64,000 bases of DNA from Chrysomallon squamiferum (Eukaryota; Animalia; Mollusca), in the NCBI GenBank assembly GCA_012295275.1, contig CM022670.1, positions 8,370,001-8,434,000 of the forward strand, in the 5' to 3' direction. The translations under genes were made by a program, and so were the position numbers. The notes below the pieces were generated by a model. That model had not been told where the DNA came from. It ran no database searches and was given only the letters and a program-made list of their open reading frames with translations. Positions 16,964 to 54,694 of the stretch are shown here, one piece after another. Position 1 is the stretch's first letter, and each line of letters opens with the position of its first letter.

Positions 16964-17023
16964 ATGGATGTAAGGCTGATATTTATACTGGTTATATCAC
17001 ACTTAGGTTTTTCTCAAGAAACA
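16964..17023 (+). CDS. First coding exon (signal peptide MDVRLIFILVISHLGFSQET) of the secreted mosaic-protein gene
   Basis: Acceptor gcatattacag| at 16958, ATG at 16964, 20 codons with n/h/c signal-peptide pattern, donor ACA|GTAAGT in phase 0 matching the phase-0 VNNNN exon at 19384. A same-length, same-phase paralogue lies at 63493. Confidence 0.75.
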
Positions 17024-17149
17024 GTAAGTACTAGTTTATATTGAACGTTATAATCAATAATATGTGTGTAAGTGAAACACTATTTAGAAAGTTTTATTTC
17101 TACAAAAATTCAACTTCAACGTGGGAGCGATTGTAAATTATTGGGAAAT

Positions 17150-18940
17150 TTTTTTATCTCTCTCTTTGCATTTGCCCGAGTCAACATTTATTCCAAATGG
17201 TTTTGGGGTTTGTAACGTGCGAATCCGAAACGCTTCTCGTTCAAGTCTAAAGACTCGAGAATGGCGTTTGTTCTATTGGGATTATTTCAAAATTTCCAAT
17301 ATATGACCAGGTAGATTAAAATGTTTGGCGACAGGAATGTCAACTTCATGCCTAATATCGTATTTGCGGACAAGCAGTTCTAACTCGTAACATACTTTGT
17401 GTTTGGACGACATACAGTTTTTTGCACAAGCTGCATATTGTCAAATACAAAACGTTTTTGGAATCGCAGTCTAGGTTAGTTCGGATCTGATGTTCACTTT
17501 TTGTTTTCCGCTACTGAACATAGACAGAGATTTTATTATGTTGTGAAGCCTGCATCTGGTCTTTTTGGAGATCGATGTAGATCCGCTACCCAAGTCAGGT
17601 GGAATATTATGTTGGATTTTATATGGTTTGAATGTGTCTGTTGGATGCAAGTGTTTTTCTAATTCTTTGACGATTTCAGATTTAACTTTCCTTAGAACTC
17701 GTTTGGAGTAACCTCTCGATTTCAGAGCGCAAAATAGAACTGAACAGGCATTGCTAAAATTTTCTTTGTTACTCGAATTTCTGTGGAACCTAATGACTTG
17801 ATATTTTACGATATCTTTAAATGTATGATGGAGATGAACGATTTAAATTGCAGCAGCTGGTTAGTGTCCGTCATTTTTCAAACTGTATACTTTGTAAATG
17901 GTTACATCCAAAAAGTCTACCGTTCGATTTGATATTGTGGCTTAAAGTTTTATATTATCATTTAATAATTTAAAATATATCGATAATTCGTCTTCAGAAT
18001 GCTGCCAAATAAAAAGAATGTTATCTAGATATCTGAGATATAAAAATGGTTTCATGGTTGCTGTGTTTAGTGCCGCTTCTTCCTATTCTGCGATATAAAT
18101 GGAGGACACCAATAAATGGGCTGAAACGCTTGCCCATGGCGCACCACAAACCTGCTGATACATTTCCCCGTTATATTCAAAGTCATTGCCCTTTAAGCTT
18201 AATTCAAGTAATTCACTAATGCTTTCTGTTGGTCTATCTGTGTCTGGATATTTTTCGAACGCTCTCTCAACTGATTCTATGCCCGCATCTATGTTTATGT
18301 TAGTGTACATGGAATCAGTATCCATGGTGACTAAAAAGGAGTTTGGTGCTATTTTTGTTTTAGATATTTTAGATAAAGGATCATCTTTATTTTTAACAAA
18401 ACTAGCATGTCTATTTGCAATTGGTTTTAAATAAGAGTCAGTGTATTCGGAAAAGTTATAAGATTCCGATCCACAATCGGAGATGATTGGTCGACTTGGT
18501 AGTGTGTTAATATCTGTCCATGTTTCAGCTGGCTTGTGTATCTTTGGGAGTAAATAAAATTTCTAGACTGAGAATCAAATCGTGATGCAAGATAGTTCGT
18601 CTGTTTTTTTTTATTTATATGATCCTTTTCCTATGGACGAACAATAATTGTGGTGAATTTATTTTTTGTTGGTTGGCCAAATGGCTATTCTCTTGATAAA
18701 ATAAGAGTTGCTGATCCTTTTTCTGCGTGTACTTTTCTGTAAGTTTTAAAGATCTCGGGATCAATTTTTGAATTATCGGGTGTCCAACCGGAATTTTCTA
18801 TTAATGGTATTTTTTCTCCACTTGAGTTTCTAAAATAACCGGCTAGTTTCATCTTATATTCTTTGGAGTGAGGGCGAATGGGTACCATACGTTCGAGTCT
18901 CGTCAGCGGCATCTGAGTGGATTGTGAGGTCGTGATTAGA
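17150..18940 (-). mobile_element. Degenerate Penelope-like retroelement (RT + GIY-YIG endonuclease) in intron 1
   Basis: Minus-strand peptides: FYLLPKIHKP, RPIISDCGSESY, LVTMDTDSMYTNI, LELSLKGNDFEYNGEMYQQ, YLRYLDN (catalytic DD mutated), VDFLDVTIYK, ALKSRGY, PVAKHFNLPGH, RLEREAFRIRTLQTPKPFGIN. Many frameshifts and stops. Confidence 0.9.
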
Positions 18941-19383
18941 CATTGTCCTCCTGTGCCAATGCGTTCCCGAATATTATCTATGTGCAGAGTCTATTTCAGA
19001 CGTACATACGTCAGAGAATATTCAAACTCCTGAACTACATGCTTGCCAGTGCCAGATTTCCCCCCCCCCCAAAAAATATATATATGCGCACAAAAATGAT
19101 AAAAGACAAAGAACAGGGAAGCGATGATTATGCTCGGTTATTGCGCAACCTAGTTTTTCTTCGGGGTTCATGGTTAAATCACTTCATAGAACATGTTACA
19201 GATGATATGTATAGTCCAACGCTTATGTTTTAACTAATCCTGATGAAAAGTACTAGAAAATGTGTACAATAAAGTGATATAAATATTATCTCATTATACA
19301 GATTTACTGTAACATATATATATATATATATATATATATAGCAATAAATTCGCATCTAAATAAATATATTTTATTACTTACAG

Positions 19384-19399
19384 GTGAATAACAACAATG
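19384..19399 (+). CDS. 16-nt micro-exon (VNNNN, phase 0 to 1), cassette 1
   Basis: ttacag|GTGAATAACAACAATG|gtaagt. Identical copies at 31508, 40965 and 53200. Confidence 0.75.
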
Positions 19400-19819: not shown

Positions 19820-20628
19820 TGACAAACTGTCTGAATTCAAAAGACTGCTGGGTGCAGCACAATTTTCAGTTTGAAGATAACTGGAACGACTGTCATGGAA
19901 AACAATACGTGAGAAAAACCACTTACGAAGTTGGGAAATATGTTGGAGTAGTTCTGTGTTCATCTACAAGGTAATCATTAAAGTATTTATGTCTGTCTGT
20001 CTGTCTCTCTAAATTCTCCATGTTCTCTTGCTGTGACATACATACACATACACACACGTACACGCATACATGTGCAGATCCAATATTCTGACCACTACAG
20101 TTGTATTTTGCAGATATAAGCTGTTTTTGTCTGACTCGCTCAGTGACCGTTTTCTCAACATCGGAGACGGCAGTGGACATGGTCAGGATCATTGTGAGTT
20201 TATAGGAAGCAAAAATGATTCAACTTCTATAGACAGCAATTTCTGGAATTCGACAGGAACTACAGGTGTGATTTTCTTTTAAAAAAAAAAACATTTTAAG
20301 AGGCACATTTCCTTTAGAAACCTTCCTTAAATTGTTACAAAATGACGGAAAACAGTAAAACAGAATTGTTTTAAAGGGTGTCTGCAATTTATATTTTAGT
20401 GTTTAAACCGACATTTATTGATAACAATATATAATAAATGTAATTCTGATTCAGTTATTTATATCATTTTAGGATACATACGATCAAAGCGTGGTGAAAC
20501 GCCTGTCAAGGGCAGAATTGGTGAAGGCACGGGATCCTCGTGGACTGGAAAGTATTATGGAAAATGGATAGAATGTGGAGTCAGGATTCCAGGAAACAGC
20601 AGAGTGGTTTTATCGTCTGGTACAAAAG
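19820..20628 (+). CDS. ABI3BP/TARSH-FNDC1 C-terminal-like domain, copy 1 (exons 19820-19970, 20114-20265, 20473-20628)
   Basis: Canonical AG/GT, phases 1-2-1-1. Spliced peptide [74 protein letters not shown] matches the remembered ABI3BP C-terminus ([56 protein letters not shown]). Confidence 0.88.
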
Positions 20629-20852: not shown

Positions 20853-21239
20853 GATCGGAAACCACAAGTGAAAATGTGTCATGGGACAAGGTTAAATATG
20901 AAAAAAAAGTGTTTTTAAAAGATGAAATATTCACAGTGCCCAGCGGAGTGACGAAAATTGATGTCATTTGTGTTGGTACGTTCGTGTTAAAATTGCACAT
21001 TTTAGTACTATAATTTTTGTTTTAAAGATTTTATCTATTTGATTTACGATTAACAAAAATAACAGTAAGAGCTACAACAACAACAACAACAACAACAACA
21101 ACACTAATAATAATATCAACGAGCAAGGTGATGCAATGAATAAAAAAGAAAGAAAGAAAATAAATAAATAAATAGGTAAATAAAGAAACAAAGAATTAAA
21201 CAAAAAATCCCCCAAACAAACAAATTAAATCTGTTCAAA

Positions 21240-21270
<31 letters not shown>

Positions 21271-22307
21271 ATATTTTTGTAATTCACGTTATTAATTACT
21301 GACAGGAGGAGGTGGGGGCGGTAAAGATGGACATTCGAGTTCAGGGTCGGGTGCATACGGTGGGGATGGTGGAATGTCACAGTTTGGTGAATACCTCAAA
21401 GCAGAAGGCGGGAAAGGTGCCAAGTCAGATAATTCAGGTTTGTTATAAAAAAGTTTATGTAAGTAAATTAGCAAAGGTTTTGTTAAATGCACAAACGGAA
21501 TGTTTACCACAAATACATATCTTTTTTTTTCTGCAGTAATAAACTGACAACGAAGAAAGAAAGAAAGAAAAGAAATAATTAAATGCAATTAATTTTTCAA
21601 AAATAAATAACAATCGTCTCTTGTTTATTATCGAATTCTATATAGAGCAAATGTATCATACAACCACAGTTTGTTTAATATATCAACATTTAATAACTAT
21701 AAACATAGGTTCTTTGATTTATTTCATTGACAACTGTTAATGATAATATGGCAATTTCTAAGTGTTACACTATCAAAATTAAGAAGATCAAAAAAATAAA
21801 ATAAAACAATAATGGAATCTACTTTACACGTAGGAGGTGAAGGTGGACATGGTACAGTCGCCAATGGAGGCCAGGGAGGGATTGGTGGGGGTTGCAGCGC
21901 AGGTGCAGGAGCTGCAGGTCAGACAAGTGGAGGTGGGGGTGGAAAGGTTCCAGGATCATCCACATATCCCTACTGTGGCGGCGGGGGCAGTTCTGGAGGC
22001 AGTTCTTGCGGCAATGAATTTGCATCAATTCCCCCAGGAAAGTCAGGACCAGGAGGTGTTGATCCCGCGGGCAGATCTGGAGGTCTTTATGGGGGAGGTG
22101 GGGGAAGCAGAGCTGGTGGACGTGCTGGGGGAGGTGGTGGGTATTCCAGGAAAGTTATAAATGTGTCTCCAGGAGAGAACATCGCTATCAAAGTGGGAAA
22201 GGCAGGATCTCCAAGTTACTGGGCTGGAAAAGCTGCTCAAGGAATCGTTGTCGTGTCCTGGGGAGGACCTATTGATAATTTTGTCAACACATCAGCAATA
22301 TCAACAG
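20853..22307 (+). CDS. Glycine-rich domain, phage-tail/bacterial Gly-rich type (exons 20853-20975, 21306-21437, 21834-22307)
   Basis: All exons are phase 1-1 with canonical sites. Peptide FTVPSGVTKIDVICVGGGGGG...SQFGEYLKAEGGKG...GGGGGYSRKVINVSPGENIAIKVGKAG...GIVVVSW. Confidence 0.85.
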
Positions 22308-22329: not shown

Positions 22330-25300
22330 CGTACAAACTGTAACTAAAACAAAGATTTAAAAGTAAGAAACAAAAAAACTTGGTTAACTGTAAGCAAAAA
22401 AATACATTCCACCTTTGACTGTATTGCATCTTATTCTATATACCCTAGTACTTTTTAACACCGACCTTTCAGAAAAAATATATACAAGCTGGAACGGTAA
22501 ATATCTCAATGGTAATTCGGTATGCTTTTAGATCATTTGATGTTTCATAATCTTTTTACATTAAGCATTTACTCGTCTTAAAATATATTTATTTTATTTC
22601 ATTTTTCTATTATTTTTTATTTTCTGTTTTTAAAAGTTGTAATATATATTTTATCATTAAGATTTGAAAAAGATTGAAATATAATTTTTAATATTTAAAA
22701 AAAAAAAACTAACACAGATGTTAAAGTATAGCAAACAACACATAATTAGTGTATATACATTTTGTTCTTGTTTTGTCTTCTGTTATCTTAATCTGTTGTG
22801 CCAAATGTATTTTATCTGACAAAACTTTATCCATTACTTCTTACTGTTTTATGTTAAAATGACTCATTTTATCATGTAATTTACCTGATTTTACTTTGCT
22901 TTGTGCTTTTATTATCATAATCATCATCATTATCATTTTCATACCTACCATCATCATCTATGTATTCAGTTATAATAATAATAATTAGTAGTAGTAGTAG
23001 TATATGTAGTAATATTTGTATTATTATTATTATTACTACTATTATTGATAAGGTTATAATTATTTTGTTGTTGTTACTGTTATTATAATTACATGTATTG
23101 TTATTAGTAAATATCAATAACTAAATATTAAATATCAATAAGTCATTCATTTTAAAGTGTATTATATCTAAACACTGCATTTATTTCTGACTGTATGTAC
23201 TATTATTCTTATGACAGAACCAAGCTCTACAAGAACATCAGCAACTCCAGGTATTTATTTGAAAACTATCTCTCAGTTAGACACACACACTCTCTGTCTT
23301 TCTCTCTCCTTTTCATTTCTCTTCCTCTATCACTCTCTCTCACTGTCTCTCTTTCCATCTGTTTTTCTTACACATGCAGTCTCATTGAAAGTATGCATGT
23401 CAGTGTATGTATGTATGTATGTATGTATGTATGTATCTGTATGACAAGTTTTTATTTTAAAACTATCTCTTAGTGAGAAAAATACATTAGCAACATAAAT
23501 ATGTATGACTAATTTGAAAAAAAACATTCATAGAAACTGTGGATAAAACAAAAATTTGAAAATAAGAAATAAAAGATTGATTAACTGTAAACGAACAAAT
23601 AAATTCCAAGTTTGAGTGTATTACATTTTATTCTACATACCCTAGTACATTTTAACACCGACCTTTCAGAAACAGTATATACAAGCTGGAACGGTAAATA
23701 TCTCAATGGTAATTCGGTATTCTTTTAGATCATTTGATGTTTCATAATCTATTTACATTAAGCATTTACTCGTCTTAAAATATATTTATTTTATTTCATT
23801 TTTCTATTATTTTTTATTTTCTGTTTTTAAAAGTTGTAATATATATTTTATCATTAAGATTTGAAAAAGATTGAAATATAATTTTTAATATTTAAAAAAA
23901 AAAAAACTAACATAGACGTTAAAGTACAGCAAACAACACATAATTAGTGTATATACATTTTGTTCTTGTTTTGTCTTCTGTTATCTTAATCTGTTGTGCC
24001 AAATGTATTTTATCTGACAAAACTTTATCCATTACTTCTTACTGTTTTATGTTAAAATGACTCATTTTATCATGTAATTTACCTGATTTTACTTTGCTTT
24101 GTGCTTTTATTATCATAATCATCATCATTATCATTTTCATACCTACCATCATCATCTATGTATTCAGTTATAATAATAATAATTAGTAGTAGTAGTAGTA
24201 TATGTAGTAATATTTGTATTATTATTATTATTACTACTATTATTGATAAGGTTATAATTATTTTGTTGTTGTTACTGTTATTATAATTACATGTATTGTT
24301 ATTAGTAAATATCAATAACTAAATATTAAATATCAATAAGTCATTCATTTTAAAGTGTATTATATCTAAACACTGCATTTATTTCTGACTGTATGTACTA
24401 TTATTCTTATGACAGAACCAAGCTCTACAAGAACATCAGCAACTCCAGGTATTTATTTGAAAACTATCTCTCAGTTAGACACACACACTCTCTGTCTTTC
24501 TCTCTCCTTTTCATTTCTCTTCCTCTATCACTCTCTCTCACTGTCTCTCTTTCCATCTGTTTTTCTTACACATGCAGTCTCATATTGAAAGTATGCATGT
24601 CAGTGTATGTATGTATGTATGTATGTATGTATGTATCTGTATGACAAGTTTTTATTTTAAAACTATGACTCAGTGAGAAAAATACATTAGCAACATAAAT
24701 AGGTATGACTAATTTGAAAAAAACATTCATAGAAACTGTGGATAAAACAAAAATTTGAAAATAAGAAATAAAAGATTGATTAACTGTAAACGAACAAATA
24801 AATTCCAAGTTTGAGTGTATTACATTTTATTCTACATACCCTAGTACATTTTAACACCGACCTTTCAGAAACAGTATATACAAGCTGGTACGGTAAATAT
24901 CTCAATGGTAATTCGGTATTCTTTTAGATCATTTGATGTTTCATAATCTTTTTACATTAAGCATTTACTCGTCTTAAAATATATTTATTTTATTTCATTT
25001 TTCTATTATTTTTTATTTTCTGTTTTTAAAAGTTGTAATATATATTTTATCATTAAGATTTGAAAAAGATTGAAATATAATTTTTAATATTTAAAAAAAA
25101 AAAAACTAACACAGATGTTAAAGTATAGCAAACAACACATAATTAGTGTATATACATTTTGTTCTTGTTTTGTCTTCTGTTATCTTAATCTGTTGTGCCA
25201 AATGTATTTTATCTGACAAAACTTTATCCATTACTTCTTACTGTTTTATGTTAAAATGACTCATTTTATCATGTAATTTACCTGATTTTACTTTTGCTTT

Positions 25301-27940
25301 TGTGCTTTTATTATCATAATCATCATCATTATCATTTTCATACCTACCATCATCATCTATGTATTCAGTTATAATAATAATAATTAGTAGTAGTAGTAGT
25401 ATATGTAGTAATATTTGTATTATTATTATTATTACTACTATTATTGATAAGGTTATAATTATTTTGTTGTTGTTACTGTTATTATAATTACATGTATTGT
25501 TATTAGTAAATATCAATAACTAAATATTAAATATCAATAAGTCATTCATTTTAAAGTGTATTATATCTAAACACTGCATTTATTTCTGACTGTATGTACT
25601 ATTATTCTTATGACAGAACCAAGCTCTACAAGAACATCAGCAACTCCAGGTATTTATTTGAAAACTATCTCTCAGTTAGACACACACACTCTCTGTCTTT
25701 CTCTCTCCTTTTCATTTCTCTTCCTCTATCACTCTCTCTCACTGTCTCTCTTTCCATCTGTTTTTCTTACACATGCAGTCTCATATTGAAAGTATGCATG
25801 TCAGTGTATGTATGTATGTATGTATGTATGTATCTGTATGACAAGTTTTTATTTTAAAACTATGACTCAGTGAGAAAAATACATTAGCAACATAAATAGG
25901 TATGACTAATTTGAAAAAAACATTCATAGAAACTGTGGATAAAACAAAAATTTGAAAATAAGAAATAAAAGATTGATTAACTGTAAACGAACAAATAAAT
26001 TCCAATAAAATATATTTAATTTTATTTTACTTTGCTTTGTGCTTTTATTATCATAATCATCATCATTATCATTTTCATACCTACCATCATCATCTATGTA
26101 TTCAGTTATAATAATAATAATTAGTAGTAGTAGTAGTATATGTAGTAATATTTGTATTATTATTATTATTACTACTATTATTGATAAGGTTATAATTATT
26201 TTGTTGTTGTTACTGTTATTATAATTACATGTATTGTTATTAGTAAATATCAATAACTAAATATTAAATATCAATAAGTCATTCATTTTAAAGTGTATTA
26301 TATCTAAACACTGCATTTATTTCTGACTGTATGTACTATTATTCTTATGACAGAACCAAGCTCTACAAGAACATCAGCAACTCCAGGTATTTATTTGAAA
26401 ACTATCTCTCAGTTAGACACACACACTCTCTGTCTTTCTCTCTCCTTTTCATTTCTCTTCCTCTATCACTCTCTCTCTCTCACTGTCTCTCTTTCCATCT
26501 GTTTTTCTTACACATGCAGTCTCATTGAAAGTATGCATGTCAGTGTATGTATGTATGTATGTATGTATGTATCTGTATGACAAGTTTTTATTTTAAAACT
26601 ATCTCTTAGTGAGAAAAATACATTAGCAACATAAATATGTATGACTAATTTGAAAAAAAACATTCATAGAAACTGTGGATAAAACAAAAATTTGAAAATA
26701 AGAAATAAAAGATTGATTAACTGTAAACGAACAAATAAATTCCAAGTTTGAGTGTATTACATTTTATTCTACATACCCTAGTACATTTTAACACCGACCT
26801 TTCAGAAACAGTATATACAAGCTGGAACGGTAAATATCTCAATGGTAATTCGGTATTCTTTTAGATCATTTGATGTTTCATAATCTTTTTACATTAAGCA
26901 TTTACTCGTCTTAAAATATATTTATTTTATTTCATTTTTCTATTATTTTTTATTTTCTGTTTTTAAAAGTTGTAATATATATTTTATCATTAAGATTTGA
27001 AAAAGATTGAATAATATTTTTTAATATTTAAAAAAACAAAAACTAACATAGACGTTAAAGTGCAGCAAACAACACATAATTAGTGTATATACATTTTGTT
27101 CTTGTTTTGTCTTCTGTTATCTTAATCTGTTGTGCCAAATGTATTTTATCTGACAAAACTTTATCCATTACTTCTTACTGTTTTATGTTAAAATGACTCA
27201 TTTTATCATGTAATTTACCTGATTTTACTTTGTTTTGTGCTTTTATTATCATAATCATCATCATTATCATTTTCTACCTACCATCATCATCTATGTATTC
27301 AGTTATAATAATAATAATTAGTAGTAGTAGTAGTATATGTAATAATATTTATTATTATTATTATTATTACTATTATTGATAAGGTTATAATTATTTTGTT
27401 GTTGTTACTGTTATTATAATTACATGTATTGTTATTAGTAAATATCAATAACTAAATATTAAATATCAATAAGTCATTCATTTTAAAGTGTATTATATCT
27501 AAACACTGCATTTATTTCTGACTGTATGTACTATTATTCTTTGACAGAACCAAGCTCTACAAGAACATCAGCAACTCCAGGTATTTCTTTTTGAAAACTA
27601 TCTCTCAGTTAGACACACACACTCTCTGTCTTTTTCTCTCCTTTTCATTTCTCTTCCTCTATAACTCTCTCTCACTGTCTCTCTTTCCATTTTTTTCTTA
27701 AACATGCAGTCTCATTGAAAGTATGCATGTCAGTGTATGTATGTATGTATGTATGTATGTATGTATCTGTATGACAAGTTTTTTTTATTTTAAAACTATC
27801 TCTTAGTGAGAAAAATACATTAGCAACATAAATATGTATGACTAATTTGAAAAAAAACATTCATAGAAACTGTGGATAAAACAAAAATTTGAAAATAAGA
27901 AATAAAAGATTGATTAACTGTAAACAGAACAAATAAATTG
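22330..27940 (+). repeat. Tandem array 1: ~1.2 kb/0.74 kb units carrying five 33-nt micro-exons (23218, 24416, 25617, 26354, 27548) encoding EPSSTRTSATP
   Basis: tgacag|AACCAAGCTCTACAAGAACATCAGCAACTCCAG|gtattt in every unit. Spacings 1198, 1201, 737, 1194. Confidence 0.9.
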
Positions 27941-28468
27941 TCTGGTACAAAAGGTAATTCGTTTTTTCTTAAACCGTAGTACATTTTAACATCGATTTTC
28001 AGAAACAATATATACAAGCTGGAATGGGAAATATCTCAATGGTAATTCGGTATATTTTTTATATTAAACATTTGTTCGACATAAAACATATTTCTTAAAA
28101 TTATTTTTTTATTTCATTTTTCTATGTTATTTTTATTTTCGGTTTTTAAAAGTTGTAATATATATTTTATAATTAAGATTTGAAAAAGAAATCATAATAT
28201 ATATATATATATATTTTAATTAACACAAATACTGAAGTACAACAAACTATTGTAAGTAGCATGTGTAAATTTTCTTCTTTTATTTCTTGCATCTATTGTT
28301 CTTGTTGTTCTTCTTCTTCTTCCTCTCCTTGTTCTTGTTGTTCTTATTATTATTATTGTTCATAATGTTATTATTATTATTAAATTTAATACATGATAAA
28401 TTAAATGCAGAATTCTATTTGAAGACTGTATTTATTTCTGACTGTGTTTACATTTATTCTTTTTACAG

Positions 28469-28501
28469 AACTAACTACTACAACGACAACAGCCACTCCA
28501 A
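28469..28501 (+). CDS. 33-nt Thr-rich micro-exon (ELTTTTTTATP); copies at 37896, 50174 and 54662
   Basis: tttttacag|AACTAACTACTACAACGACAACAGCCACTCCAA|gtattt, phase 1-1. Flanks are paralogous to the EPSS-exon flanks. Confidence 0.75.
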
Positions 28502-28694
28502 GTATTTATTTTAAAACTATCTCTCTGTGAGTTAGAGATTCTCTGTCTCTGTCGCTTTGTCTCTTTATTCCATTTCTCACTCTATCACTCTGTCTCCTGC
28601 CCTGAGTCTCTCTCTTTCTCTTTCTCTACACGCACATCCAATCACATATGAAATGTATGCATGTCAGTGTATATATGTGTGAGATAACTATACT

Positions 28695-28784
<90 letters not shown>

Positions 28785-28946
28785 AATTTGAAAGCATGCA
28801 TAAACATGTAGGTGTTTGAAAATGCATGTACGTTTGTAAACAAAATGAATTTTGTTTATAAGAAATGTGTATATGTGTTTCTATGTAAACGAACAAATAT
28901 GTAGATGTATATTTTGTTTCTAAACATTTATTATAATCATTTAAAG

Positions 28947-30125
28947 CTACTCGATGCATGGGAACGTATTGTTCAGTTTTTATATCTGAGTGGAGCCAAA
29001 TTTGTCAACGGATACTGTGTTTGTACAAAAACTGGATACAACTACTATACGTGCCTACTCAATGCACTATATATAACTAAATATATCTATTCAGAAACGA
29101 TCAGGTTCACACACAAACATACAGATACACATACATACCCACATATACATATACACATGCACATACTCAGGCCTGCAAACACAAATATACAGATGCACAT
29201 GCACATAAACACACAGACACATTCACACAGACTGAGTCAGAGGCAATATTTGTAACAGGGAAATACTCGAATCGATAAAGTAAAGGAACATAGTTGAAAT
29301 ATTTTAAAATTATTTTTTACACTGATTATGCTGGTTGTTTAGTACAAAGAAACAAAGGAAACCAGGGCTGTTCCATCTTACCACGGCAGAAAGCGATCGT
29401 CTGTGTATGGTTGTATCAACAAAAGCAGTCTGAATCTGTCGCCCGAAGTTCATGTATTTGGATGCTATGAGAACATCAATCGAAGGCCACCTAAAGCTGG
29501 GAATACAACTGTGGACATTGTGGGACACACAACCAAACCTGTTGTTCTGGTTTTGACCTCTTATGAACCTGTAGCCTGGATGATTAATGTTGCTGGAATG
29601 ATTATCCAGAAAATCATGCCATAAAATTTCTCTAATTTTAAGAAAGCTTGTGTAGAATTTTTGGAATCTCATCACTTTGTAATAGTATGTGTTATATATA
29701 TATAGCCTACACATTACGGTGTAGAGTCATTTTATCAGTTAGCAATAGCGTATATTTATATATAACTTTTGATAAAGTAGACTGATAAAGCGTTTTTGGA
29801 CTGCTAAGTAAAATGGGAAGTAACTTGATGTCTGTATGTGTTTGTATGCAGTATGTATGTGCATATTTAAAACTTTATATGTTAAAATCAAAATGAAATT
29901 GTTTTTGCTTTCTTGCAGTATTCTTACTATCTGGATAAGAGTTCTGTAGTGGTGGATCAAACCCTCCAGTTGAGAAAAGCAGAAAGAGTGTTTATGGATA
30001 TTTAAAGTGACAGCGGAGGTCACACGCTCAAGTTACTGGCTGAAGTCAAGAAACTCTTTGGTCATGTGACTTCCTTTTCTGGAACCTACAAAGTTGACCA
30101 CTGGTCACTCACGGTGGGCATCTAG
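28947..30125 (+). pseudogene. Damaged copy (or assembly-error copy) of the EGF-like and SYEPV-domain exons, cassette 1
   Basis: Compared with 38400-39585: donor lost after TGCCTAC (29058), AG acceptor lost (~29320), donor lost at ~29620, small deletions at ~29590 and ~29948. Confidence 0.7.
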
Positions 30126-37617: not shown

Positions 37618-37648
<31 letters not shown>

Positions 37649-38118: not shown

Positions 38119-38228
<110 letters not shown>

Positions 38229-44100: not shown

Positions 44101-47100
44101 ATAAATATGTATGACTAATTTGAAAAAAAAAAAAACATTCATAGAAACTGTGGATAAAACAAAAATTTGAAAATAAGAAATAAAAGATTGATTAACTGTA
44201 AACGAACAAATAAATTCCAATAAAATATATTTAATTTTATTTTACCTTGCTTTGTGCTTTTATTATCATAATCATCATCATTATCATTTTCATACCTACC
44301 ATCATCATCTATGTATTCAGTTATAATAATAATAATTAGTAGTAGTAGTAATATATGTAGTAATATTTGTATTATTATTATTATTACTACTATTATTGAT
44401 AAGGTTATAATTATTTTGTTGTTGTTACTGTTATTATAATTACATGTATTGTTATTAGTAAATATCAATAACTAAATATTAAATATCAATAAGTCATTCA
44501 TTTTAAAGTGTATTATATCTAAACACTGCATTTATTTCTGACTGTATGTACTATTATTCTTATGACAGAACCAAGTTCTACAACAGCATCAGCAATTCCA
44601 GGTATTTATTTGAAAACTATCTCTCAGTTAGACACACACACTCTCTGTCTTTATCTCTCCTTTTTCGTTCTCTTCCTTTCTAACTCTCTCTCACTGTCTC
44701 TCTTTCCATCTGTTTTTCTTAAACATGCAGTCTCATATTGAAAGTATGCATGTCAGTGTATGTATGTATGTATGAATGTGTGTATCGCTATGACAAGTTT
44801 TTATTTTAAAACTATCTCTTAGTGAGAAAAATACATTAGCAACATAAATATGTATGACTAATTTGAAAAAAAACATTCATAGAAACTGTGGATAAAACAA
44901 AAATTTGAAAATAAGAAATAAAAGATTGATTAACTGTAAACGAACAAATAAATTCCAATAAAATATATTTAATTTTATTTTACTTTGCTTTGTGCTTTTA
45001 TTATCATAATCATCATCATTATCATTTTCATACCTACCATCATCATCTATGTATTCAGTTATAATAATAATAATTAGTAGTAGTAGTAGTATATGTAGTA
45101 ATATTTGTATTATTATTATTATTACTACTATTATTGATAAGGTTATAATTATTTTGTTGTTGTTACTGTTATTATAATTACATGTATTGTTATTAGTAAA
45201 TATCAATAACTAAATATTAAATATCAATAAGTCATTCATTTTAAAGTGTATTATATCTAAACACTGCATTTATTTCTGACTGTATGTACTATTATTCTTA
45301 TGACAGAACCAAGCTCTACAAGAACATCAGCAACTCCAGGTATTTATTTGAAAACTATCTCTCAGTTAGACACACACACTCTCTGTCTTTCTCTCTCCTT
45401 TTATTTCTCTTCCTTTATCACTCTCTCTCACTGTCTCTCTTTCCATCTGTTTTTCTTAAACATGCAGTCTCATATTGAAAGTATGCATGTCAGTGTATGT
45501 ATGTATGTATGAATGTATGTATCCCTATGACAAGTTTTTATTTTAAAACTATCTCTTAGTGAGAAAAATACATTAGCAACATAAATATGTATGACTAATT
45601 TGAAAAAAAACATTCATAGAAACTGTGGATAAAACAAAAATTTGAAAATAAGAAATAAAAGATTGATTAACTGTAAACGAACAAATAAATTCCAATAAAA
45701 TATATTTAATTTTATTTTACCTTTGCTTTGTGCTTTTATTATCATAATCATCATCATTATCATTTTCATACCTACCATCATCATCTATGTATTCAGTTAT
45801 AATAATAATAATTAGTAGTAGTAGTAGTACATGTAGTAATATTTGTATTATTATTATTATTACTACTATTATTGATAAGGTTATAATTATTTTGTTGTTG
45901 TTACTGTTATTATAATTACATGTATGTTTATTAGTAAATATCAATAAGTCATTCATTTTAAAGTGTATTATATCTAAACACTGCATTTATTTCTGACTGT
46001 TTGTACTATTATTCTTATGACAGAACCAAGTTCTACAAGGACATCAGAAACTCCAGGTATTTATTTGAAAACTATCTCTCAGTTAGACACACACACTCTC
46101 TGTCTTTCTCTCTCTTTTTTATTTCTCTTCCTTTATCACTCTCTCTCTTTTCATCTGTTTTTCTTACACATGCAGTCTCATATTGACAGTATGCATGTCA
46201 GTGTATGTATGTATGTATGTATGTATCTGTATGACAAGTTTTTATTTTAAAACTATGTCTCAGTGAGGAAAATACATTAGCAACATAAATATGTATGACT
46301 AATTTGAAAAAAACATTCATAGAAACTGTGGATAAAACAAAAATTTGAAAATAAGAAATAAAAGATTGATTAACTGTAAACGAACAAATAAATTCCAATA
46401 AAATATATTTATTTTATTTCATTTTTTATTATTTTTTTATTTTCTGTTTTTAAAAAAAATATATATTTTGTTTTGTTTTGACTTCTGTTATCTTAATCTG
46501 TTGTGCCAAATGTATTTTAATTTGAAAAAACTTTATCCAGAAACTGTGGATCAAAAATTTGAAAATGTTTTATGTTAAAATGAACAAATCATTTAAAATA
46601 TGTAATTTTTTATTTTACTTTGCTTTGTGCTTTTATTATCATAATCATCATCATTATCATGTTCATTCCTATCATCATCATCTATGTATTCAGTTATAAT
46701 AATAAAAATTAGTAGTAGTAGTATTATATGCATTATTATTATTATTGATAAGGTTATAATTATTTTGTTGTTGTTACTGTTATTATAATTACATGTATTG
46801 TTATTAGTAAATATCAATAACTAAATATAAAATATCAATAAGTCATTCATTTTAAAGTGTATTATATCTAAACACTGCATTTATTTCTGACTGTATGTAC
46901 TATTATTCTTATGACAGAACCAAGTTCTACAAGGACATCAGAAACTCCAGGTATTTATTTGAAAACTATCTCTCAGTTAGACACACACACTCTCTGTCTT
47001 TCTCTCTCCTTTTTATTTCTCTTCCTCTATCACTCTCTCTCACTGTCTCTCTTTCCGTCTGTTTTTCTTACACATGCAGTCTCATATTGAAAGTATGCAT

Positions 47101-48710
47101 GTCAGTGTATGTATGTATATATGTATGTATCTGTATGACAAGTTTTTATTTTAAAACTATGACTCAGTGAGAAAAATACATTAGCAACATAAATAGGTAT
47201 GACTAATTTGAAAAAAACATTCATAGAAACTGTGGATAAAACAAAAATTTGAAAATAAGAAATAAAAGATTGATTAACTGTAAACGAACAAATAAATTCC
47301 AAGTTTGAGTGTATTACATCTTATTCTACATACCCTAGTACATTTTAACACCGACCTTTCAGAAACAATATATACAAGCTGGAACGGTAAATATTTCAAT
47401 GGTAATTCGGTATTCTTTTAGATCATTTGATGTTTCATAATCTTTTTATATTAAGCATTTACTCGTCTTAAAATATATTTATTTTATTTCATTTTTCTAT
47501 TATTTTTTATTTTCTGTTTTTAAAAGTTGTAATATATATTTTATCATTAAGATTTGAAAAAGATTGAAATATAATTTTTAATATTTAAAAAAAAAAAAAA
47601 ACTAACACAGACGTTAAAGTACAGCAAACAACACATAATTAGTGTATATACATTTTGTTCTTGTTTTGTCTTCTGTTATCTTAATCTGTTGTGCCAAATG
47701 TATTTTATCTGACAAAACTTTATCCATTACTTCTTACTGTTTTATGTTAAAATGACTCATTTTATCATGTAATTTACCTGATTTTACTTTGCTTTGTGCT
47801 TTTATTATAATAATCATCATCATTATCATTTTCATACCTACCATCATCATCTATGTATTCAGTTATAATAATAATAATTAGTAGTAGTAGTATATGTAGT
47901 AATATTTGTATTATTATTATTATTACTACTATTATTGATAAGGTTATAATTATTTTGTTGTTGTTACTGTTATTATAATTACATGTATTGTTATTAGTAA
48001 ATATCAATAACTAAATATTAAATATCAATAAGTCATTCATTTTAAAGTGTATTATATCTAAACACTGCATTTATTTCTGACTGTTTGTACTATTATTCTT
48101 ATGACAGAACCAAGTTCTACAAGAACATCAGAAACTCCAGGTATTTATTTGAAAACTATCTCTCAGTTAGACACACACACTCTCTGTCTTTCTCTCTCCT
48201 TTTTATTTCTCTTCCTCTATCACTCTCTCTCACTGTCTCTCTTTCCGTCTGTTTTTCTTACACATGCAGTCTCATATTGAAAGTATGCGTTTCAGTGTAT
48301 GTATATATGTATGAGAAGATTTTCTTTTAAAACTATCTCTCTGTGAGACAAATACATTAGCAACATCAATGGGTATGACTAATTTGAAAAAAAAAAACAT
48401 TCATAGAAATTGTGGATAAAACAAAGATTTGAAAATAAGAAACAAAAGATTGATTACCCGTATAACACAAATCAATTCCAAGTTTGAGTGTATAACATCT
48501 TATTCTATATACCCTAGTACTTTTTAACACCGGCCTTTCATAAATAATACATAGCGTTTATATGGGAAATATCTCAGTGTTAATTCCGTATGCTTTGTAT
48601 GATCATATGACGTCTTTAATAATCTTTTTCTGTTAAGTATTTGGTCGTGTTAAAATATGTTTATTTTATTTCATTTCATTGTATTATTATTCTATTTTCT
48701 GTTTTGAAAA
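41160..48710 (+). repeat. Tandem array 3 with eight 33-nt micro-exons (41420, 42624, 43822, 44569, 45307, 46024, 46918, 48108)
   Basis: Same unit. Variants EPSSTTTSATP, EPSSTRTSATP, EPSSTTASAIP and EPSSTRTSETP all keep 33 nt and AG/GT. Confidence 0.9.
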
Positions 48711-48883
48711 AGAATATGAGACAAAAAGATTTGTGACAGCGATTTCTTAATTCATGTTCAATTATTTATTAACAAATAAATAAAATATTTCACATTACAA
48801 CAAAACATACGTTTTGTAAACAAATAGAAATTTTTCACATGATACCGAAGAAATGATTGAAACAATCATTTATTTTATTTCAG

Positions 48884-49670
48884 TGACAAACTGTCTGAAT
48901 TCAAAAGACTGCTGGGTGCAGCACAATTTTCAGTTTGATGATAACTGGAACGATTGTCATGGAGAACAATACGTGAGAAAAACCACTTACGAATTTGGGA
49001 AATATGTTGGAGTAGTTCTGTGTTCATCTACCAGGTATTCATGTGTATCTCTCTAAATCTGTCTCAATCTCGATGTCTCTTGGCTATGACATACATACAC
49101 AAACGTACACGCACACATGTGCAGATCCAATATTCTGACCACTACAGTTGTATTTTGCAGATATAAGCTGTTTTTGTCTGATTCGCTCAGTGACCGTTTT
49201 CTCAACATCGGAGACGGCAGTGGACATGGTCAGGATCATTGTGAGTTTATAGGAAGCAAAAATGATGCAACTTCTATAGACAGGAATTTCTGGAATTCGC
49301 CAGGAACTACAGGTCAGACTTTCTTTAAAAAAAAACATTTTAAGAGGCACATTTCCTTTAGAAACCTTTCTTAAATTGTTACAAATTGACTGAAAACAGT
49401 AAAACAGAATTATTTTAAAGGGTGTCTGCAATTTATATTTTGGTCTAAACCGAGATTTATTGATCACAACATATGATAAATGTAATTCTGATTCAGTTAT
49501 TTATATCGTTTTAGGATACATACGATCAAGGCGTGGTGAAACGCCTGCCAAGGGCAGAATTGGGGGAGGCACGGGATCCTCGTGGACTGGAAATTATTAT
49601 GGAAAATGGATAGAATGTGGAGTCAGGATTCCAGGAAACAGCAGAGTGGTATTATTGTCTGGTACAAAAG
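48884..49670 (+). CDS. TARSH C-terminal-like domain, copy 3 (exons 48884-49034, 49161-49312, 49515-49670)
   Basis: Same lengths and phases as copies 1 and 2; open frame. Confidence 0.85.
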
Positions 49671-50396
49671 GTAATTCGTCTTTTCTTAAACCGTCTTGTT
49701 TCTAACATCGATTTTTCATAAAGAATATATACAAGCTGGAATGGGAAATATCTCAAAAGTAATTCGGTATGCTTTTATATTAAACATTTGTTCGACATAA
49801 AACATATTTATGTTATTTAAGTTCATTCTATGTTATTTAAGTTCATTCGGTTTTTAAAAGTTGTAATATATATTTTATAATTAAGATTTGAAAAAGATCG
49901 AAATATATATATATATATATTTTAATTAACACAAATACTGAAGTACAGCAAACTACACGTAAGTAGCATGTGTAAATTTTCTTCTTTTATTTCTTGCATC
50001 TATTGTTCTTGTTGTTCTTCTTCTTCCTCTCCTTGTTCTTGTTGTTCTTATTATTATTATTGTTCATAATGTTATTATTATTATTAAATATTAATACATG
50101 ATAAATTAAATGCAGAATTCTATTTGAAGACTGTATTTATTTCTGACTGTGTTTACATTTATTCTTTTTACAGAACTAACTACTACAACGACAACAGCCA
50201 CTCCAAGTATTTATTTTAAAACTATCTCTCTGTGAGCCAAGAATTCTCTGTCTCTGTCGCCGTTGTCTCTTTATTCCTCTTTCTCACTCTATCACGCTGT
50301 CTCCCGCCCTGAGTCTCTCTCTTTCTCTTTCTCTACACGCACATCCAATCACATATGTATGTATATTAATGTATATATGTGTGAGATAACTATACT

Positions 50397-50488
<92 letters not shown>

Positions 50489-50655
50489 GTCTGTATGACA
50501 GCATGCATACATGTAGGTGTACATGCATGTACGTTTGTATGTATGTATGAATTTTGTTTATAAGTATGTGTGTATATGTGTTTCTATGTGTACGTATGTA
50601 TGTAAATATGTAGATGTATATTTTGTTTCTAAACATTTATTATAATCATTTAAAG

Positions 50656-51848
50656 CTACTCGATGCATGGGAACGTATTGTTCCGGTTCGTATACGAGTG
50701 GAGCCAAATGTGTCAACGGATACTGTGTTTGTACAAACTGGATGGATACAACTACTATACGTGCCTACGTAAGCACTATATATAACTAAATATATCTATT
50801 CAGAAACGATCAGGTTCACACACAAACATACAGATACACATACATACCCACATATACATATACACACATGCACATACTCAGGCCTGCAAACACAAATATA
50901 CAGATGCACATGCACATAAACACACAGACACATTCACACAGACTGAGTCAGAGGCAATATTTGTAACGGGAAATACTCCGAATCGATAAAGTAAAGGAAC
51001 ATAGTTGAAATATTTTAAAATTATTTTTACAGCTGATTATGCTGGTTGTTTAGTACAAAGAAACAAGGAAACCAGGGCTGTTCCATCTTACCACGGCAGA
51101 AAGCGATCGTCTGTGTATGGTTGTATCAACAAAAGCAGTCTGAATCTGTCGCCCGAAGTTCATGTACTTGGATGCTATGAGAACATCAATCGAAGGCCAC
51201 CTAAAGCTGGGAATACAACTGTGGACATTGTGGGACACACAACCAAACCTGTTGTTCTGGTTTTGACCTCTTATGAACCTGTAGCCTGGAGGATTAATGT
51301 GCCTGCTGGAATGATTATCCAGAAAATCATGCTGGTAAAATTTCTCTAATTTTAAGAAAGCTTGTGTAGAATTTTTGGAATCTCATCACTTTGTAATAGT
51401 ATGTGTTATATATATATAGCCTACACATTACGGTGTAGAGTCATTTTATCGGTTAGCAATAGCGTATATATATATATATATAACTTTTGATAAAGTAGAC
51501 TGATAAAGCGTTTTTGGACTGCTAGGTAAAATGGGAAGTAACTTGATGTCTGTATGTGTTTGTATGCAGTATGTATGTGCATATTTAAAACTTTATATGT
51601 TAAAATCAAAATGAAATTGTTTTGCTTTCTTGCAGTATTCTTACTATCTGGATAAGAGTTCTGTAAGCGTGAGTGGTGGATCAAACCCTCCAGTTGAGAC
51701 AAGCAGAAAGAGTGTTTATGGATATGGTAGTGACAGCGGAGGTCACACGCTCAAGTTACTGGCTGAAGTCAAGAAACGCTTTGGTCATGTGACTTCCTTT
51801 TCTGGAACCTACAAAGTTGACCACTGGTCACTCACGGTGGGCATCTAG
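50656..51848 (+). CDS. Cassette 3 EGF-like exon (50656-50768, +2 nt frameshift) and SYEPV domain type A exons (51033-51334, 51636-51836/51848)
   Basis: Near-identical to 38400-39585. The EGF exon is 113 nt instead of 111 (ACAAACTGGATGGATAC vs ACAAAAACTGGATAC). Confidence 0.7.
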
Positions 51849-53199
51849 CTTATCATTTGACTGTGCAAATAAATATTTTAATCAGGGTAAGAACCATGAG
51901 ATCATCTGGAATCCAGTGTTTCTTATCTATAACGGCTCCTAGTAAACACCACTCTCTATTAATCGCCCAAAACATGTTTGTCTTCCTGCGCCAATGCGTT
52001 CCCTAATATTGTCTATGTACAGAGTCTAATCAGACATATATAAGAAAGAGAATATTCAAATCCTAAAATACATACATACATGAACACATACACACATATA
52101 ATCATTAACACATATAGACATACATACATAAGTACTTAGCTAAGGAAAGCCGAGACACCGTTGATCACTAATTTTTATTCTCCAGTTTTCCTCCAAGGTT
52201 AATGGCAACATGGTTAATAACTATACGGGAAATGATAGAGACGAGAGGTGTTGGCCATGTAATCTTGAGACTTTTATCGTGTCAACTACAGCGATTCTGA
52301 GGCCTGCTTGTTCTTCTATCTTCCTTTTTCGTTCTAGAGAAGCTATTTTTATTTGTTTCTTGACCGGGGTGCTTGTCAGAACTTCTTAGGCCTACCCTTC
52401 CTAAATCCTTCCTTGTTTATTCGTGCCTTTCGAAAATAATTGACGATGATCGACTTTATATTTGAAGTGAATGAGACTGGTTCGAATGTTGCTGATGTTC
52501 CTGTAGCTGCATTTGGGGCTCGATTTGGCATATCTGGTTCATGTGACTGATGCATTTCGTGTTGTTTTCGGTCTGTCGCAGAGGAAAAAAGGAGGACCCC
52601 ATCACCAAATGCATTAGGAAGGAGTAGATAAACACCTTTGTTCTTGAAACCAGCTGCGATGTTCATGGAAGTGAAGGAAAGTGTGTAAGCACTGCCTATA
52701 ATCTTGCAAAAATCATCGAAATTCCCTACATGCGCTTCATACAAGCAGGTGAGCTTATGCAAATGGCGGTCTGAGGACCAAAGAGGAGATATTGATAATC
52801 TTCACAAAAACTACCTCTAATCGAAACATAATGAATAGTTTCTTATTCCTTGATGATCCATACTATATCACAAACAAATATTAGTCCTAAAAATGTACTT
52901 TTGATGGTTGAAAAGAAAACTTTACCTTGCTAATTTTCAAAATGGAAGCCTCGGTTAAAACAAAACAGATTTCTTCACTGATGATTCACCATGATGATAT
53001 CACTTCGGGATTCCTTTTTTTTTTCATTATCTATAAATAGTCACAGATCCACAGTGCTCCATGTTCCACAGTGCCCCGACTCACACTAGTACACACATAT
53101 ATATACTTCACACATACACATTCGCATAAAGATATACACACATACAAATATATATATATACATATTCGCATCTAACTGAATATATTTTAATATTTACAG

Positions 53200-54694
53200 G
53201 TGAATAACAACAATGGTAAGTTTCTACTTAATTACTTAACTTCAGATAGAGAAACCAAAACATGATTATTGAATAGATTTGTCATTATCATGACTATTAT
53301 CTCAGTATCTTATGCTAAACGTATTATGACGTTATCTTATATTACCTTATCTTTCTCTTATCTTCTCTTCTCTTAATCTATTGTGTCAAATGTATTTTAT
53401 TTGACCAAACTTTATCCATTACTTCTTACTGTTTAATGTTAAAATGACTCATCTTATCATGTAATTTACATTATTTTACTTTGCTTTGTGCTTTTATTAT
53501 CATAATCATCATCATTATCATGTTCGTACCTACTATCATCATCTATGTATTCAGTTATAATAATAATAATTAGTAGTAGTAGTAGTATATGTATTATTAT
53601 TATTATTATTATTAATATTATTGATACGGTTATAAATATTTTGTTGTTGTTACTGTTATTATAATTACATGTATTGTTATTAGTAAATATCAATAACTAA
53701 ATATTAAATATCAATAAGTCATTCATTTTAAAGTGTATTATATCTAAACACTGCATTTATTTCTGACTGTATGTACTATTATTCTTATGACAGAACCAAG
53801 TTCTACAAGGACATCAGAAACTCCAGGTATTTATTTGAAAACTATCTCTCAGTTAGACACACACACTCTCTGTCTTTATCTTTCCTTTTTATCTCTCTTA
53901 CTCTCTCACTCTCCCTCACTGTCTCTCTTTCCATCTGTTTTTCTTACACATGCAGTCTCATATTGAAAGTATGCATGTCAGTGTATGTATGTATGTATGA
54001 ATGTATGTATCCCTATGACAAGTTTTTATTTTAAAACTATCTCTCTGTGAGACAAATACATTAGCAACCTCAATGGGTCGTACTAATTTGAAAAAAACAT
54101 TCATAGAAACTGTGGATATTACAAAGATTTGAAAATAAGAAACAAAAGATTGATTACCTGTATAACACAAATCAATTTCAAGTTTGAGTATATAACATCT
54201 TATTCTATATACGCTAGTACTTTTTAACACCGGCCTTTCATAAATAATACATAGCGTTTATATGGGAAATATCTCAGTGGTAATTCCGTATGCTTTGTAT
54301 GTTCATATGACGTCGTCAATAATCTTTTTCTGTTAAGTATTTGGTCGTGTTAAAATATGTTTATTTTATTTCATTTCATTGTATTATTATTCTATTTTCT
54401 GTTTTGAAAAGTTGTAATAAATATTATATCTTTAACATTTGATAATGATCGAACTATAAATTTTAATTTTTCTTATTTTAATTAACACAGATGCTGAAGC
54501 CCAGCAATAATGTTTGATTTCTTGCATGTTTTGTTGTTGTTTTTTATTATAATTATTGACAATGTTATTATTATTATTAAATATTAATACATAATACACT
54601 GTAAACTGAATTTGAAGGCTGTATTTATTTCTGACTATATTTAGATTTATTCTTTTTACAGAACTAACTACTACAACGACAACAGCCACTTCAA
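53200..54694 (+). CDS. Cassette 4 micro-exons: VNNNN (53200-53215), EPSSTRTSETP (53794-53826), ELTTTTTTATS (54662-54694)
   Basis: Canonical AG/GT, lengths 16/33/33, compatible phases. Confidence 0.7.

What the first reader, a model, noticed from the sequence alone, without database searches (positions are those of the whole stretch)
16964..53215. One signal-peptide exon in front of four headless gene cassettes: alternative 3' cassette choice or a read-through polyprotein
Seen: only one signal-peptide exon (phase-0 donor), but four identical phase-0 VNNNN entry exons (19384, 31508, 40965, 53200). At each cassette junction (~30256, ~39715, ~51978), the 3' flank of the stop exon (cf. 58755-58903) is fused to intron-1-like sequence (cf. 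18943-19050), so the duplicates carry no recognisable start exon. The cassettes differ in content: Gly-rich domain only in 1, type-B domain only in 4, and 5/5/8/1 mucin exons. Inference, three options: (a) the shared leader exon splices to any cassette, a mirror image of vertebrate clustered Pcdh/UGT1 loci; (b) a phase-0 donor ACG|GTGGGC just before the stop (WSLT|VNNNN) concatenates cassettes into one giant protein; (c) downstream cassettes are silent. Cassette 4 type B does run on through a strong donor, showing the domain can be internal.
Basis: inference. Interest (0 to 1): 0.8.

Follow-up and report, generated by a model that had tools for sequence, protein, structure and literature searches.

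The report
Decaying headless gene copies, partly misassembled
A mollusc gene for a predicted secreted, modular protein is followed by leader-less partial copies that are mostly broken, and one of the four apparent copies is likely a genome-assembly error, so this is probably ordinary duplication debris rather than a new way of choosing gene endings.

Summary
The leader exon, four identical 16-nt entry exons and 5/5/8/1 mucin exons are real. But only cassette 2 has an intact end. Cassette 1's last three exons are frameshifted and lack splice sites, cassette 3 has a frameshift, and cassette 4 ends in a deleted exon. Cassette 1's broken end (27937 to about 30050) is a patchwork of cassette-2/3 sequence and in-register mucin-intron pieces (20 of the top 20 windows; controls 1 and 0 of 20). 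The next 2.5 kb differs from the cassette 2/3 junction by 1 substitution. That block is likely an assembly duplicate. Skipping it gives one 892-aa open frame: leader, TARSH_C, Gly-rich, mucin, TARSH_C, EGF-like, betaglycan-orphan-like domain. RNA contigs show cassette 4's broken end spliced, so it is not silent (one contig). No RNA covered a leader junction, so option (a) is untested. Option (b) is unlikely: a snail homolog stops at the same position. The 'intron-1-like' junction is a high-copy repeat. Shared 5' exons with variable 3' exons are known from mod(mdg4) and lola. Low interest.

The parts
16964..17023 (+). Signal-peptide-like coding exon (20 codons), phase-0 donor; preceded by an AG acceptor, so it may not be the first exon
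18943..19040 (+). High-copy interspersed repeat; the 'intron-1-like' sequence also found at 30256, 39715 and 51978
   Evidence: 84-85% over about 98 nt; bin depth 49,784 vs 94.7 in X2
19384..19399 (+). Entry exon 1 (16 nt, phase 0 to 1)
19820..20628 (+). TARSH_C domain copy 1, three exons (19820-19970, 20114-20265, 20473-20628)
   Evidence: PF21731: 53.3 and 55 bits against cut-off 27; third exon 18.8; spliced RNA contigs
20853..22307 (+). Gly-rich region, three exons (20853-20975, 21306-21437, 21834-22307), single copy
   Evidence: no Pfam hit; last exon spliced to a mucin exon in X1
23218..27580 (+). Mucin array 1: five 33-nt phase-1 exons in 0.7-1.2 kb repeat units
27937..30125 (+). Broken end of cassette 1 (tail of a TARSH exon, Thr-rich exon 28469, disrupted EGF-like, A1 and A2 exons); mosaic of cassette-2/3 and mucin-intron sequence, likely a blended assembly consensus
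30126..32600 (+). Junction 1, entry exon 2 (31508-31523) and mucin exon 31963; near-exact copy of 39586-42058, likely written twice
33165..35851 (+). Rest of mucin array 2 (four exons); inferred true continuation of array 1
36596..39585 (+). Only intact cassette end: TARSH_C (36596-37387), Thr-rich exon 37896, EGF-like exon 38400-38510, orphan-like domain exons A1 38775-39076 and A2 39373-39585 with stop
   Evidence: same module order as Gigantopelta P0001, 66-77% identity per exon
40965..51848 (+). Cassette 3, leader-less: entry exon 40965, eight mucin exons (second mosaic patch at about 46400-46620), TARSH_C 48884-49670, frameshifted EGF-like exon 50656-50768, intact A1 and A2
53200..58754 (+). 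Cassette 4, leader-less: entry exon 53200, mucin 53794, Thr-rich 54662, EGF-like 55486-55602, type-B domain exons 56934-57235 and 57603-57867, TARSH fragment 58166-58217 with a cryptic donor, out-of-frame A2 58541-58754 (stop at 58571)
   Evidence: splice chain in one X1 RNA contig; module order as in Gigantopelta P0004
59214..59219 (+). First AATAAA after cassette 4; it lies beyond the part copied into the junctions. None within 1.3 kb after the cassette 1 and 2 stops; one at 51868 after cassette 3
63493..63552 (+). Second signal-peptide-like exon with a phase-0 donor, probably the start of the next related gene

Best explanation
This is likely one ordinary gene for a predicted secreted modular protein, followed by two leader-less, decaying tandem partial copies, with the block at about 27.9-32.6 kb likely an assembly duplicate. 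Shown: every module after the entry exon joins in phase 1, and only cassette 2's end is intact. Leader + cassette 1 + mucin exons + cassette 2 reads open for 892 codons, or 914 if no intact phase-1 exon is skipped. Inferred: that is the real gene (leader, TARSH_C, Gly-rich, about 9 mucin repeats, TARSH_C, EGF-like, betaglycan-orphan-like domain). Unequal crossing-over between the homologous introns would have copied the part from the entry exon onward, without the leader and without the downstream poly(A) signal. Cassette 3 then gained a frameshift (real or a base error) and cassette 4 an internal deletion. Cassette 4 is transcribed and spliced (one contig), probably by read-through from upstream; which upstream exon joins it is not known.
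For: Broken exons in cassettes 1, 3 and 4. Cassette 1's end has 185 private alignment columns against 44 and 19 for cassettes 2 and 3. Its private letters in 28781-28946 fit mucin-intron windows: 20 of the top 20 of 2192 windows (background 15%; controls 1/20 and 0/20), and the top windows lie in one register 232-285 nt after a mucin exon. The patches alternate at a 5-15 nt scale in sequence where cassette 2 and the mucin intron align poorly. 30130-32600 vs 39590-42058: 1 substitution, where the cassette 2/3 tails differ by 2-13 per 500 nt. A second mosaic patch at 46400-46620. 892-aa frame. Gigantopelta P0001 has TARSH_C, linker, EGF-like, A domain and stops at the same column; P0004 has signal peptide, EGF-like, B domain, TARSH_C. 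RNA joints: Gly-rich to mucin, mucin to mucin, T1 to T2, and B2 to T1 fragment to A2'. No AATAAA within 1.3 kb of the cassette 1 and 2 stops. 5'-truncated duplicates are often still transcribed (5 of 7 in PMC6169893, passages).
Against: No raw long reads and no genome were available, so the misjoin is inferred from sequence pattern alone. The mosaic test is strong only for 28781-28946. For EGF to A2 it is moderate (10 of the top 12 windows; best 51 vs 37 for others), and for the two sub-segments alone it shows nothing. A very recent real duplication would also be near-identical. No RNA contig spans mucin array 1 into cassette 2's TARSH exons, so the 892-aa model is not observed. In X1 the mucin exon after the Gly-rich exon is of the type found at 46024, 46918 and 53794, not the one at 23218; this fits an allele or a consensus error, but also long-range skipping. 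The cassette-4 contig could come from a paralog elsewhere in the genome. Entry exons and their splice sites are perfect in all copies.
Confidence: 0.55

Rival explanations
1. One reading: the shared leader exon is alternatively spliced in cis to several entry exons, and this is a used way of making distinct secreted proteins.
For: Intact phase-0 entry exons 2.4, 14.5, 23.9 and 36.2 kb from the leader donor. No leader-like exon in the junctions. Cassette 4 is spliced in RNA yet has no leader of its own. Upstream last exons of cassettes 1 and 2 lack AATAAA.
Against: Only 1 of 4 cassettes has an intact end. The cassette 3 and 4 products would be frameshifted or truncated (321 and 302 aa). Entry exon 2 is probably a duplicate of entry exon 3. 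Perfect splice sites are expected from recent copying alone.
Confidence: 0.17
2. The assembly is right: four cassettes exist, cassette 1's end really decayed after a recent duplication, and its exons are skipped so that mucin exons splice on into cassette 2.
For: Skipping gives an open 914-aa frame. Mucin and Thr-rich introns are homologous, so crossing-over or conversion is possible there.
Against: Heavy damage in 2.1 kb sits directly beside 2.5 kb with 1 substitution. The damage copies mucin-intron letters in register in poorly alignable sequence.
Confidence: 0.13
3. The assembly is inflated further: cassettes 2 and 3 are two haplotypes, or a copy-number variant, of one unit, leaving one gene plus cassette 4. 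This can hold together with the best explanation.
For: Cassette 2 and 3 tails differ by about 1%, within the differences between run X2 and the window at single-copy sites (6 in 553 nt to 17 in 294 nt). X2 depth on TARSH exons is 148 and 175 against 95 for the single-copy Gly-rich exon, where the window has three copies. A second mosaic patch lies inside array 3.
Against: The tool states that contig depth is no copy number, and contigs over single-copy parts range from about 13 to 115. Junctions 2 and 3 differ by 35-39 substitutions per 500 nt in their repeat part and lead into different cassettes.
Confidence: 0.25
4. One reading: a donor just before the stop of the A2 exon splices to the next entry exon and chains cassettes into one giant protein.
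For: The site is phase 0 and in frame. It scores at the 85th percentile of 2575 GT sites, above 3 of 22 other donors, including the cryptic one seen used in RNA. Coral homologs have tandem EGF-like/A modules.
Against: 4 of 9 U1 matches. The gastropod homolog P0001 ends at the same column with the same Val-Gly pair. The chain would break at cassette 1's disrupted exons and cassette 3's frameshift. Type B runs on through a different, phase-1 donor after a linker, as in P0004.
Confidence: 0.04

Closest known systems
5'-truncated (promoter-less) partial segmental duplicates such as ROCK1P1, HYDIN2 and GTF2IP1 (PMC6169893, passages read)
   Same: The copy lacks the ancestral first exons, is highly similar to its source, is often still transcribed, and lies in regions that are hard to annotate.
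   Different: Here the copies lie in tandem downstream of the source gene on the same strand, so the source's own leader could in principle be reused.
Drosophila mod(mdg4) and lola (PMC6237743, abstract and introduction read)
   Same: Common 5' exons with a cluster of alternative 3' exons: the architecture that option (a) proposes.
   Different: Those loci have 20 to 31 or more variants, own promoters and trans-splicing, conserved across insects. Here at most 1 of 4 cassettes is intact and no leader junction has been seen.
Vertebrate clustered protocadherins and UGT1 (recalled, no call)
   Same: Tandem cassettes and shared exons in one locus.
   Different: Their variable part is 5', with one promoter per variable exon and constant 3' exons. 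This locus is the reverse, and no choice has been shown.
Gigantopelta aegis LOC121383034 (P0001) and LOC121374683 (P0004), uncharacterized
   Same: Same modules in the same order as cassette 2 (TARSH_C, EGF-like, A) and cassette 4 (EGF-like, B, TARSH_C); best exon matches 62-88% identical.
   Different: Two separately annotated proteins whose records list different longest contigs (91.7 and 102.9 Mb). Neither has the Gly-rich region. P0001's annotated N-terminus is different.
TARSH/ABI3BP C-terminal domain (PF21731) and the betaglycan/endoglin orphan domain
   Same: TARSH_C passes the Pfam cut-off. A model of the coral homolog P0002 matches orphan domains (Foldseek E 7.6e-8; VIA Z 11.5, rmsd 2.7, 128 aligned).
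   Different: The fold was tested on a homolog model of mean pLDDT 59.7, not on the window's protein. No ZP domain or membrane anchor was noticed in the exons modelled here. Ligand binding is untested.

Membership tests
Common-5'/variable-3' locus (mod(mdg4), lola type) | Common 5' exon(s) upstream of several alternative acceptors in a compatible phase | tested here: met
   Phase-0 leader donor and four phase-0 entry exons; one of them is probably an assembly duplicate
Common-5'/variable-3' locus (mod(mdg4), lola type) | Several intact alternative 3' units | tested here: not met
   1 of 4 cassette ends is intact; some breaks may be assembly errors
Common-5'/variable-3' locus (mod(mdg4), lola type) | Transcripts joining the common exon to different 3' units | tested here: inconclusive
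   No spliced leader contig in 3 RNA runs; the leader is covered only by one unspliced contig
Common-5'/variable-3' locus (mod(mdg4), lola type) | Independent promoters and trans-splicing | not testable with these tools
   Needs CAGE and allele-resolved long cDNA
Clustered Pcdh/UGT1 type | Variable first exons, each with a promoter, spliced to constant 3' exons (recalled) | tested here: not met
   The repeated part is 3' and no leader-like exon lies in the junctions
5'-truncated tandem partial duplicate | Copy lacks the ancestral leader exon | tested here: met
5'-truncated tandem partial duplicate | High identity to the source unit, with reading-frame decay | tested here: met
5'-truncated tandem partial duplicate | Exists outside this assembly | tested here: met
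   For cassette 4's deletion junction: RNA contig of run X1. For the TARSH-without-Gly-rich form: joint 20648 to 22452 in run X2. Copy number and order not shown
False duplication in an assembly | Near-zero divergence from another copy and a blended consensus at the join | tested here: met
False duplication in an assembly | No spanning raw reads, reduced read depth | not testable with these tools
   No raw reads of the assembled individual and no genome; X2 contig depth is only a weak hint
TARSH_C domain (PF21731) | Score above the Pfam gathering cut-off | tested here: met
   53.3 and 55 bits against 27 for exons 1 and 2 separately
Betaglycan/endoglin orphan domain | Fold match | tested here: inconclusive
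   Met for a homolog model (top 10 Foldseek rows; 3 of 48,161 chains at Z>=5, all orphan domains). Not tested on the window's own spliced domain; no significant sequence match to PDB

The most novel reading that the evidence does not exclude
A young cis-spliced 'one head, several bodies' locus: read-through past last exons that lack a poly(A) signal lets the single leader exon, or the upstream phase-1 mucin exons, splice into alternative downstream cassettes. One promoter would then yield secreted proteins ending in different betaglycan-orphan-like domains (type A or type B). It would be a mollusc locus caught at the birth of a mod(mdg4)/lola-like architecture without trans-splicing. The spliced, leader-less cassette 4 is the lead.
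Probability: 0.2. Interest if true: 0.55.

Novelty: new member of a known kind. Interest (0 to 1): 0.25.

Why it matters
As most likely read, it matters little: an uncharacterized secreted-type mollusc protein that combines TARSH_C, Gly-rich, mucin, EGF-like and betaglycan-orphan-like modules, plus a clear example of how a blended consensus in a repeat array can create an extra 'cassette'. If leader sharing were shown, it would be a rare early stage of a common-5'/variable-3' locus made by partial tandem duplication, testable with one long-read cDNA library.

Tried and rejected
No genome is held, so paralogs elsewhere and the gene behind the second leader could not be examined. RNA evidence over the A2 exon, junction 3 and entry exon 4 was not obtained, so (b) has no read-level test. 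Leader junctions: no RNA cover, which is no evidence either way. X2 depth over mucin introns (14-283, window copies 7-18) is far below the window's copy count, but repeats are skipped and AT-rich parts run low, so I did not use it. Mosaic test on EGF-to-A1 and A1-to-A2 separately: no signal. My first donor matrix had three misplaced donors and was redone. I first took the organism for a cephalopod because of the protocadherin and AT-richness; the high identity to Gigantopelta proteins makes a gastropod more likely (inference; not resolved). Single-sequence model of P0004: pLDDT 43, not used. ESM Atlas: best feature score 0.77, uninformative. PDB sequence searches: nothing below E 0.2. A sub-threshold Pfam Toxin_2 match of the cassette-4 EGF-like exon (22.3 bits, cut-off 25.1) was read as a generic cysteine pattern. 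The HMMER search of representatives was still queued and was not collected, so the family's range of architectures rests on 5 proteins. Papers: TARSH + cephalopod gave 2 unrelated papers; 'Target of Nesh-SH3' + mollusc 0; PF26060 0; two multi-term searches on false or partial duplication 0; some searches were seen as listings only. Supplements were not opened. Earlier scan findings: none.
Full report
Setting. The window is AT-rich animal DNA with many microsatellites. A protocadherin-type gene lies at about 5.2-10.6 kb (six cadherin repeats). The locus in question runs from 16964 to about 58750. Its closest protein relatives found are two uncharacterized Gigantopelta aegis proteins, 63-68% identical to the query exons, so a gastropod is the likelier source (inference). 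No genome is held.

Anatomy. After the entry exon every module begins and ends in phase 1. The three-exon domain at 19820, 36596 and 48884 is TARSH_C (PF21731). The terminal type-A and type-B domains are paralogous. A model of their coral homolog P0002 matches the betaglycan/endoglin orphan domain; this was tested on the homolog only. Cassette 2 has the module order of P0001 and cassette 4 that of P0004.

Only cassette 2 ends intact. Cassette 1's EGF-like, A1 and A2 exons carry frameshifts and have lost three splice dinucleotides. Cassette 3's EGF-like exon is 2 nt too long. In cassette 4 a deletion fuses the first TARSH exon to the A1-A2 intron, and A2 is frameshifted. The 'intron-1-like' sequence is about 98 nt at 84-85% identity, in a bin with depth 49,784 against 94.7 for a single-copy exon in run X2, which covers all 30 bins and so is taken as DNA. 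It is a high-copy repeat. A second leader-like exon lies downstream at 63493.

The first junction is probably not real. Cassette 1's end starts abruptly at 27937 with the tail of a TARSH exon inside a mucin intron. It has 185 private columns against 44 and 19 in cassettes 2 and 3. The private letters are not random. For 28781-28946, windows that fit cassette 1 better than cassettes 2 and 3 are mucin-array windows in 20 of the top 20 of 2192 (background 15%); with cassette 2 or 3 as the suspect the count is 1 and 0 of 20. The best windows share one register after a mucin exon. The patches alternate every 5-15 nt where the two sources align poorly. That is what a consensus of two wrongly overlapped reads looks like (inference) and is hard to explain by gene conversion. 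For the EGF-to-A2 stretch the signal is weaker (10 of the top 12 windows), and it is absent in its two sub-segments tested alone. The next 2.5 kb, holding junction 1 and entry exon 2, differs from junction 2 and entry exon 3 by 1 substitution and single-base indels, while the cassette 2 and 3 tails differ by 2-13 substitutions per 500 nt. A second mosaic patch lies at 46400-46620. Without the suspect block, leader + cassette 1 + nine mucin exons + cassette 2 is an 892-codon open frame. Raw reads were not available, so this remains inferred.

RNA. Four public runs were found; one RNA run holds 7% of the words and two were added from the same study. All four were laid on 16920-23300 as contigs; RNA depth was about 2-9 on the exons and the tables were cut. 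Seen: T1-to-T2 joints (X1, X4); Gly-rich to mucin to mucin (X1); mucin to mucin (X4). One X1 contig carries the end of B2, the TARSH fragment and the start of the degenerate A2, which are positions 57835-57867, 58166-58217 and 58541 onward. So cassette 4's deletion exists outside this assembly and is spliced, unless it comes from an unseen paralog. Difference counts fit cassette-2/3 TARSH exons in all three RNA runs: X1 record 5 has 3 differences where 3 are expected, and record 6 has 0, the cassette-1 form; X4 record 29 has 3 of 4 expected; X3 record 23 has 3, ends at the exon edge and does not continue on the Gly-rich exon. Not all letters were listed, so this assignment is by count. No RNA contig joined the leader to anything. 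X2 shows a TARSH exon followed directly by mucin-type intron (joint 20648 to 22452), so the form without Gly-rich exons is real.

The three options. (c) fails for cassette 4. (b) is unlikely: P0001 ends at the same column with the same Val-Gly pair, the site matches U1 at 4 of 9 positions, and the chain would hit broken exons. It is not excluded, since 3 of 22 other donors score lower and no reads over A2 were obtained. (a) is possible and untested; its products from cassettes 3 and 4 would be 321 and 302 aa, frameshifted or truncated. No AATAAA lies within 1.3 kb of the cassette 1 and 2 stops, cassette 3 has one 20 nt after its stop, and the first after cassette 4 is at 59214, outside the copied part. 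Read-through is therefore plausible (inference), and any upstream phase-1 exon could then join cassette 4 without the entry exon.

Comparison. Promoter-less partial duplicates that remain transcribed are well known (5 of 7 in PMC6169893; passages). Common 5' exons with many alternative 3' exons are known from mod(mdg4) and lola (PMC6237743; abstract and introduction), so even (a) would be a variant of a known kind. This locus fails that family's test of several intact 3' units. I found no paper on this protein family in molluscs; the library lacks most subscription journals.

Verdict. Observation partly confirmed; interpretation partly supported. Best reading: one intact modular gene, two decaying leader-less copies and one likely assembly duplicate (0.55). 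A used shared-leader choice gets about 0.17, and any meaningful alternative use of downstream cassettes about 0.2. Interest 0.25.

Noticed in passing
window 5207-10640 (+): Protocadherin-type gene: one 2.7-kb exon with six cadherin repeats and a membrane-like segment, then short exons near 8290-8416, 8885-9000 and 10600.
   Followed up: partly
window 9240-10158 and 60535-61504: About 1 kb of a protocadherin intron recurs at 87% identity 2 kb upstream of the second leader exon; either a low-copy repeat or a trace of an older duplication.
   Followed up: no
window 63493-63552 (+): Second signal-peptide-like exon with a phase-0 donor; its gene runs off the window.
   Followed up: partly
window 16945-16963 and 63458-63492: Both leader exons are preceded by a pyrimidine-rich AG acceptor, so the true first exon may be non-coding and further upstream.
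   Followed up: no
window 17130-18990 (-): Intron 1 holds a repeat at depth about 400-1700 in X2 with reverse-transcriptase-like open-frame fragments (18083-18562, 18685-18990). The Penelope-like label is recalled; Pfam gave no supporting hit.
   Followed up: partly
window 30657-31007, 40112-40477, 52376-52801 (-): Open frames of 116-141 codons in the junction regions, possibly a transposon remnant (recalled resemblance); no Pfam hit for the one tested.
   Followed up: partly
window 46400-46620: Second mosaic patch mixing two parts of the mucin repeat unit; possible second misjoin.
   Followed up: partly
window 58166-58217: A very weak cryptic donor, created where a deletion fused exon to intron, is used in one RNA contig.
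   Followed up: yes
window 19820-20628 vs 36596-37387: The TARSH_C copies of cassettes 1 and 2 differ at 10 non-synonymous and 4 synonymous codons of 152.
   Followed up: partly
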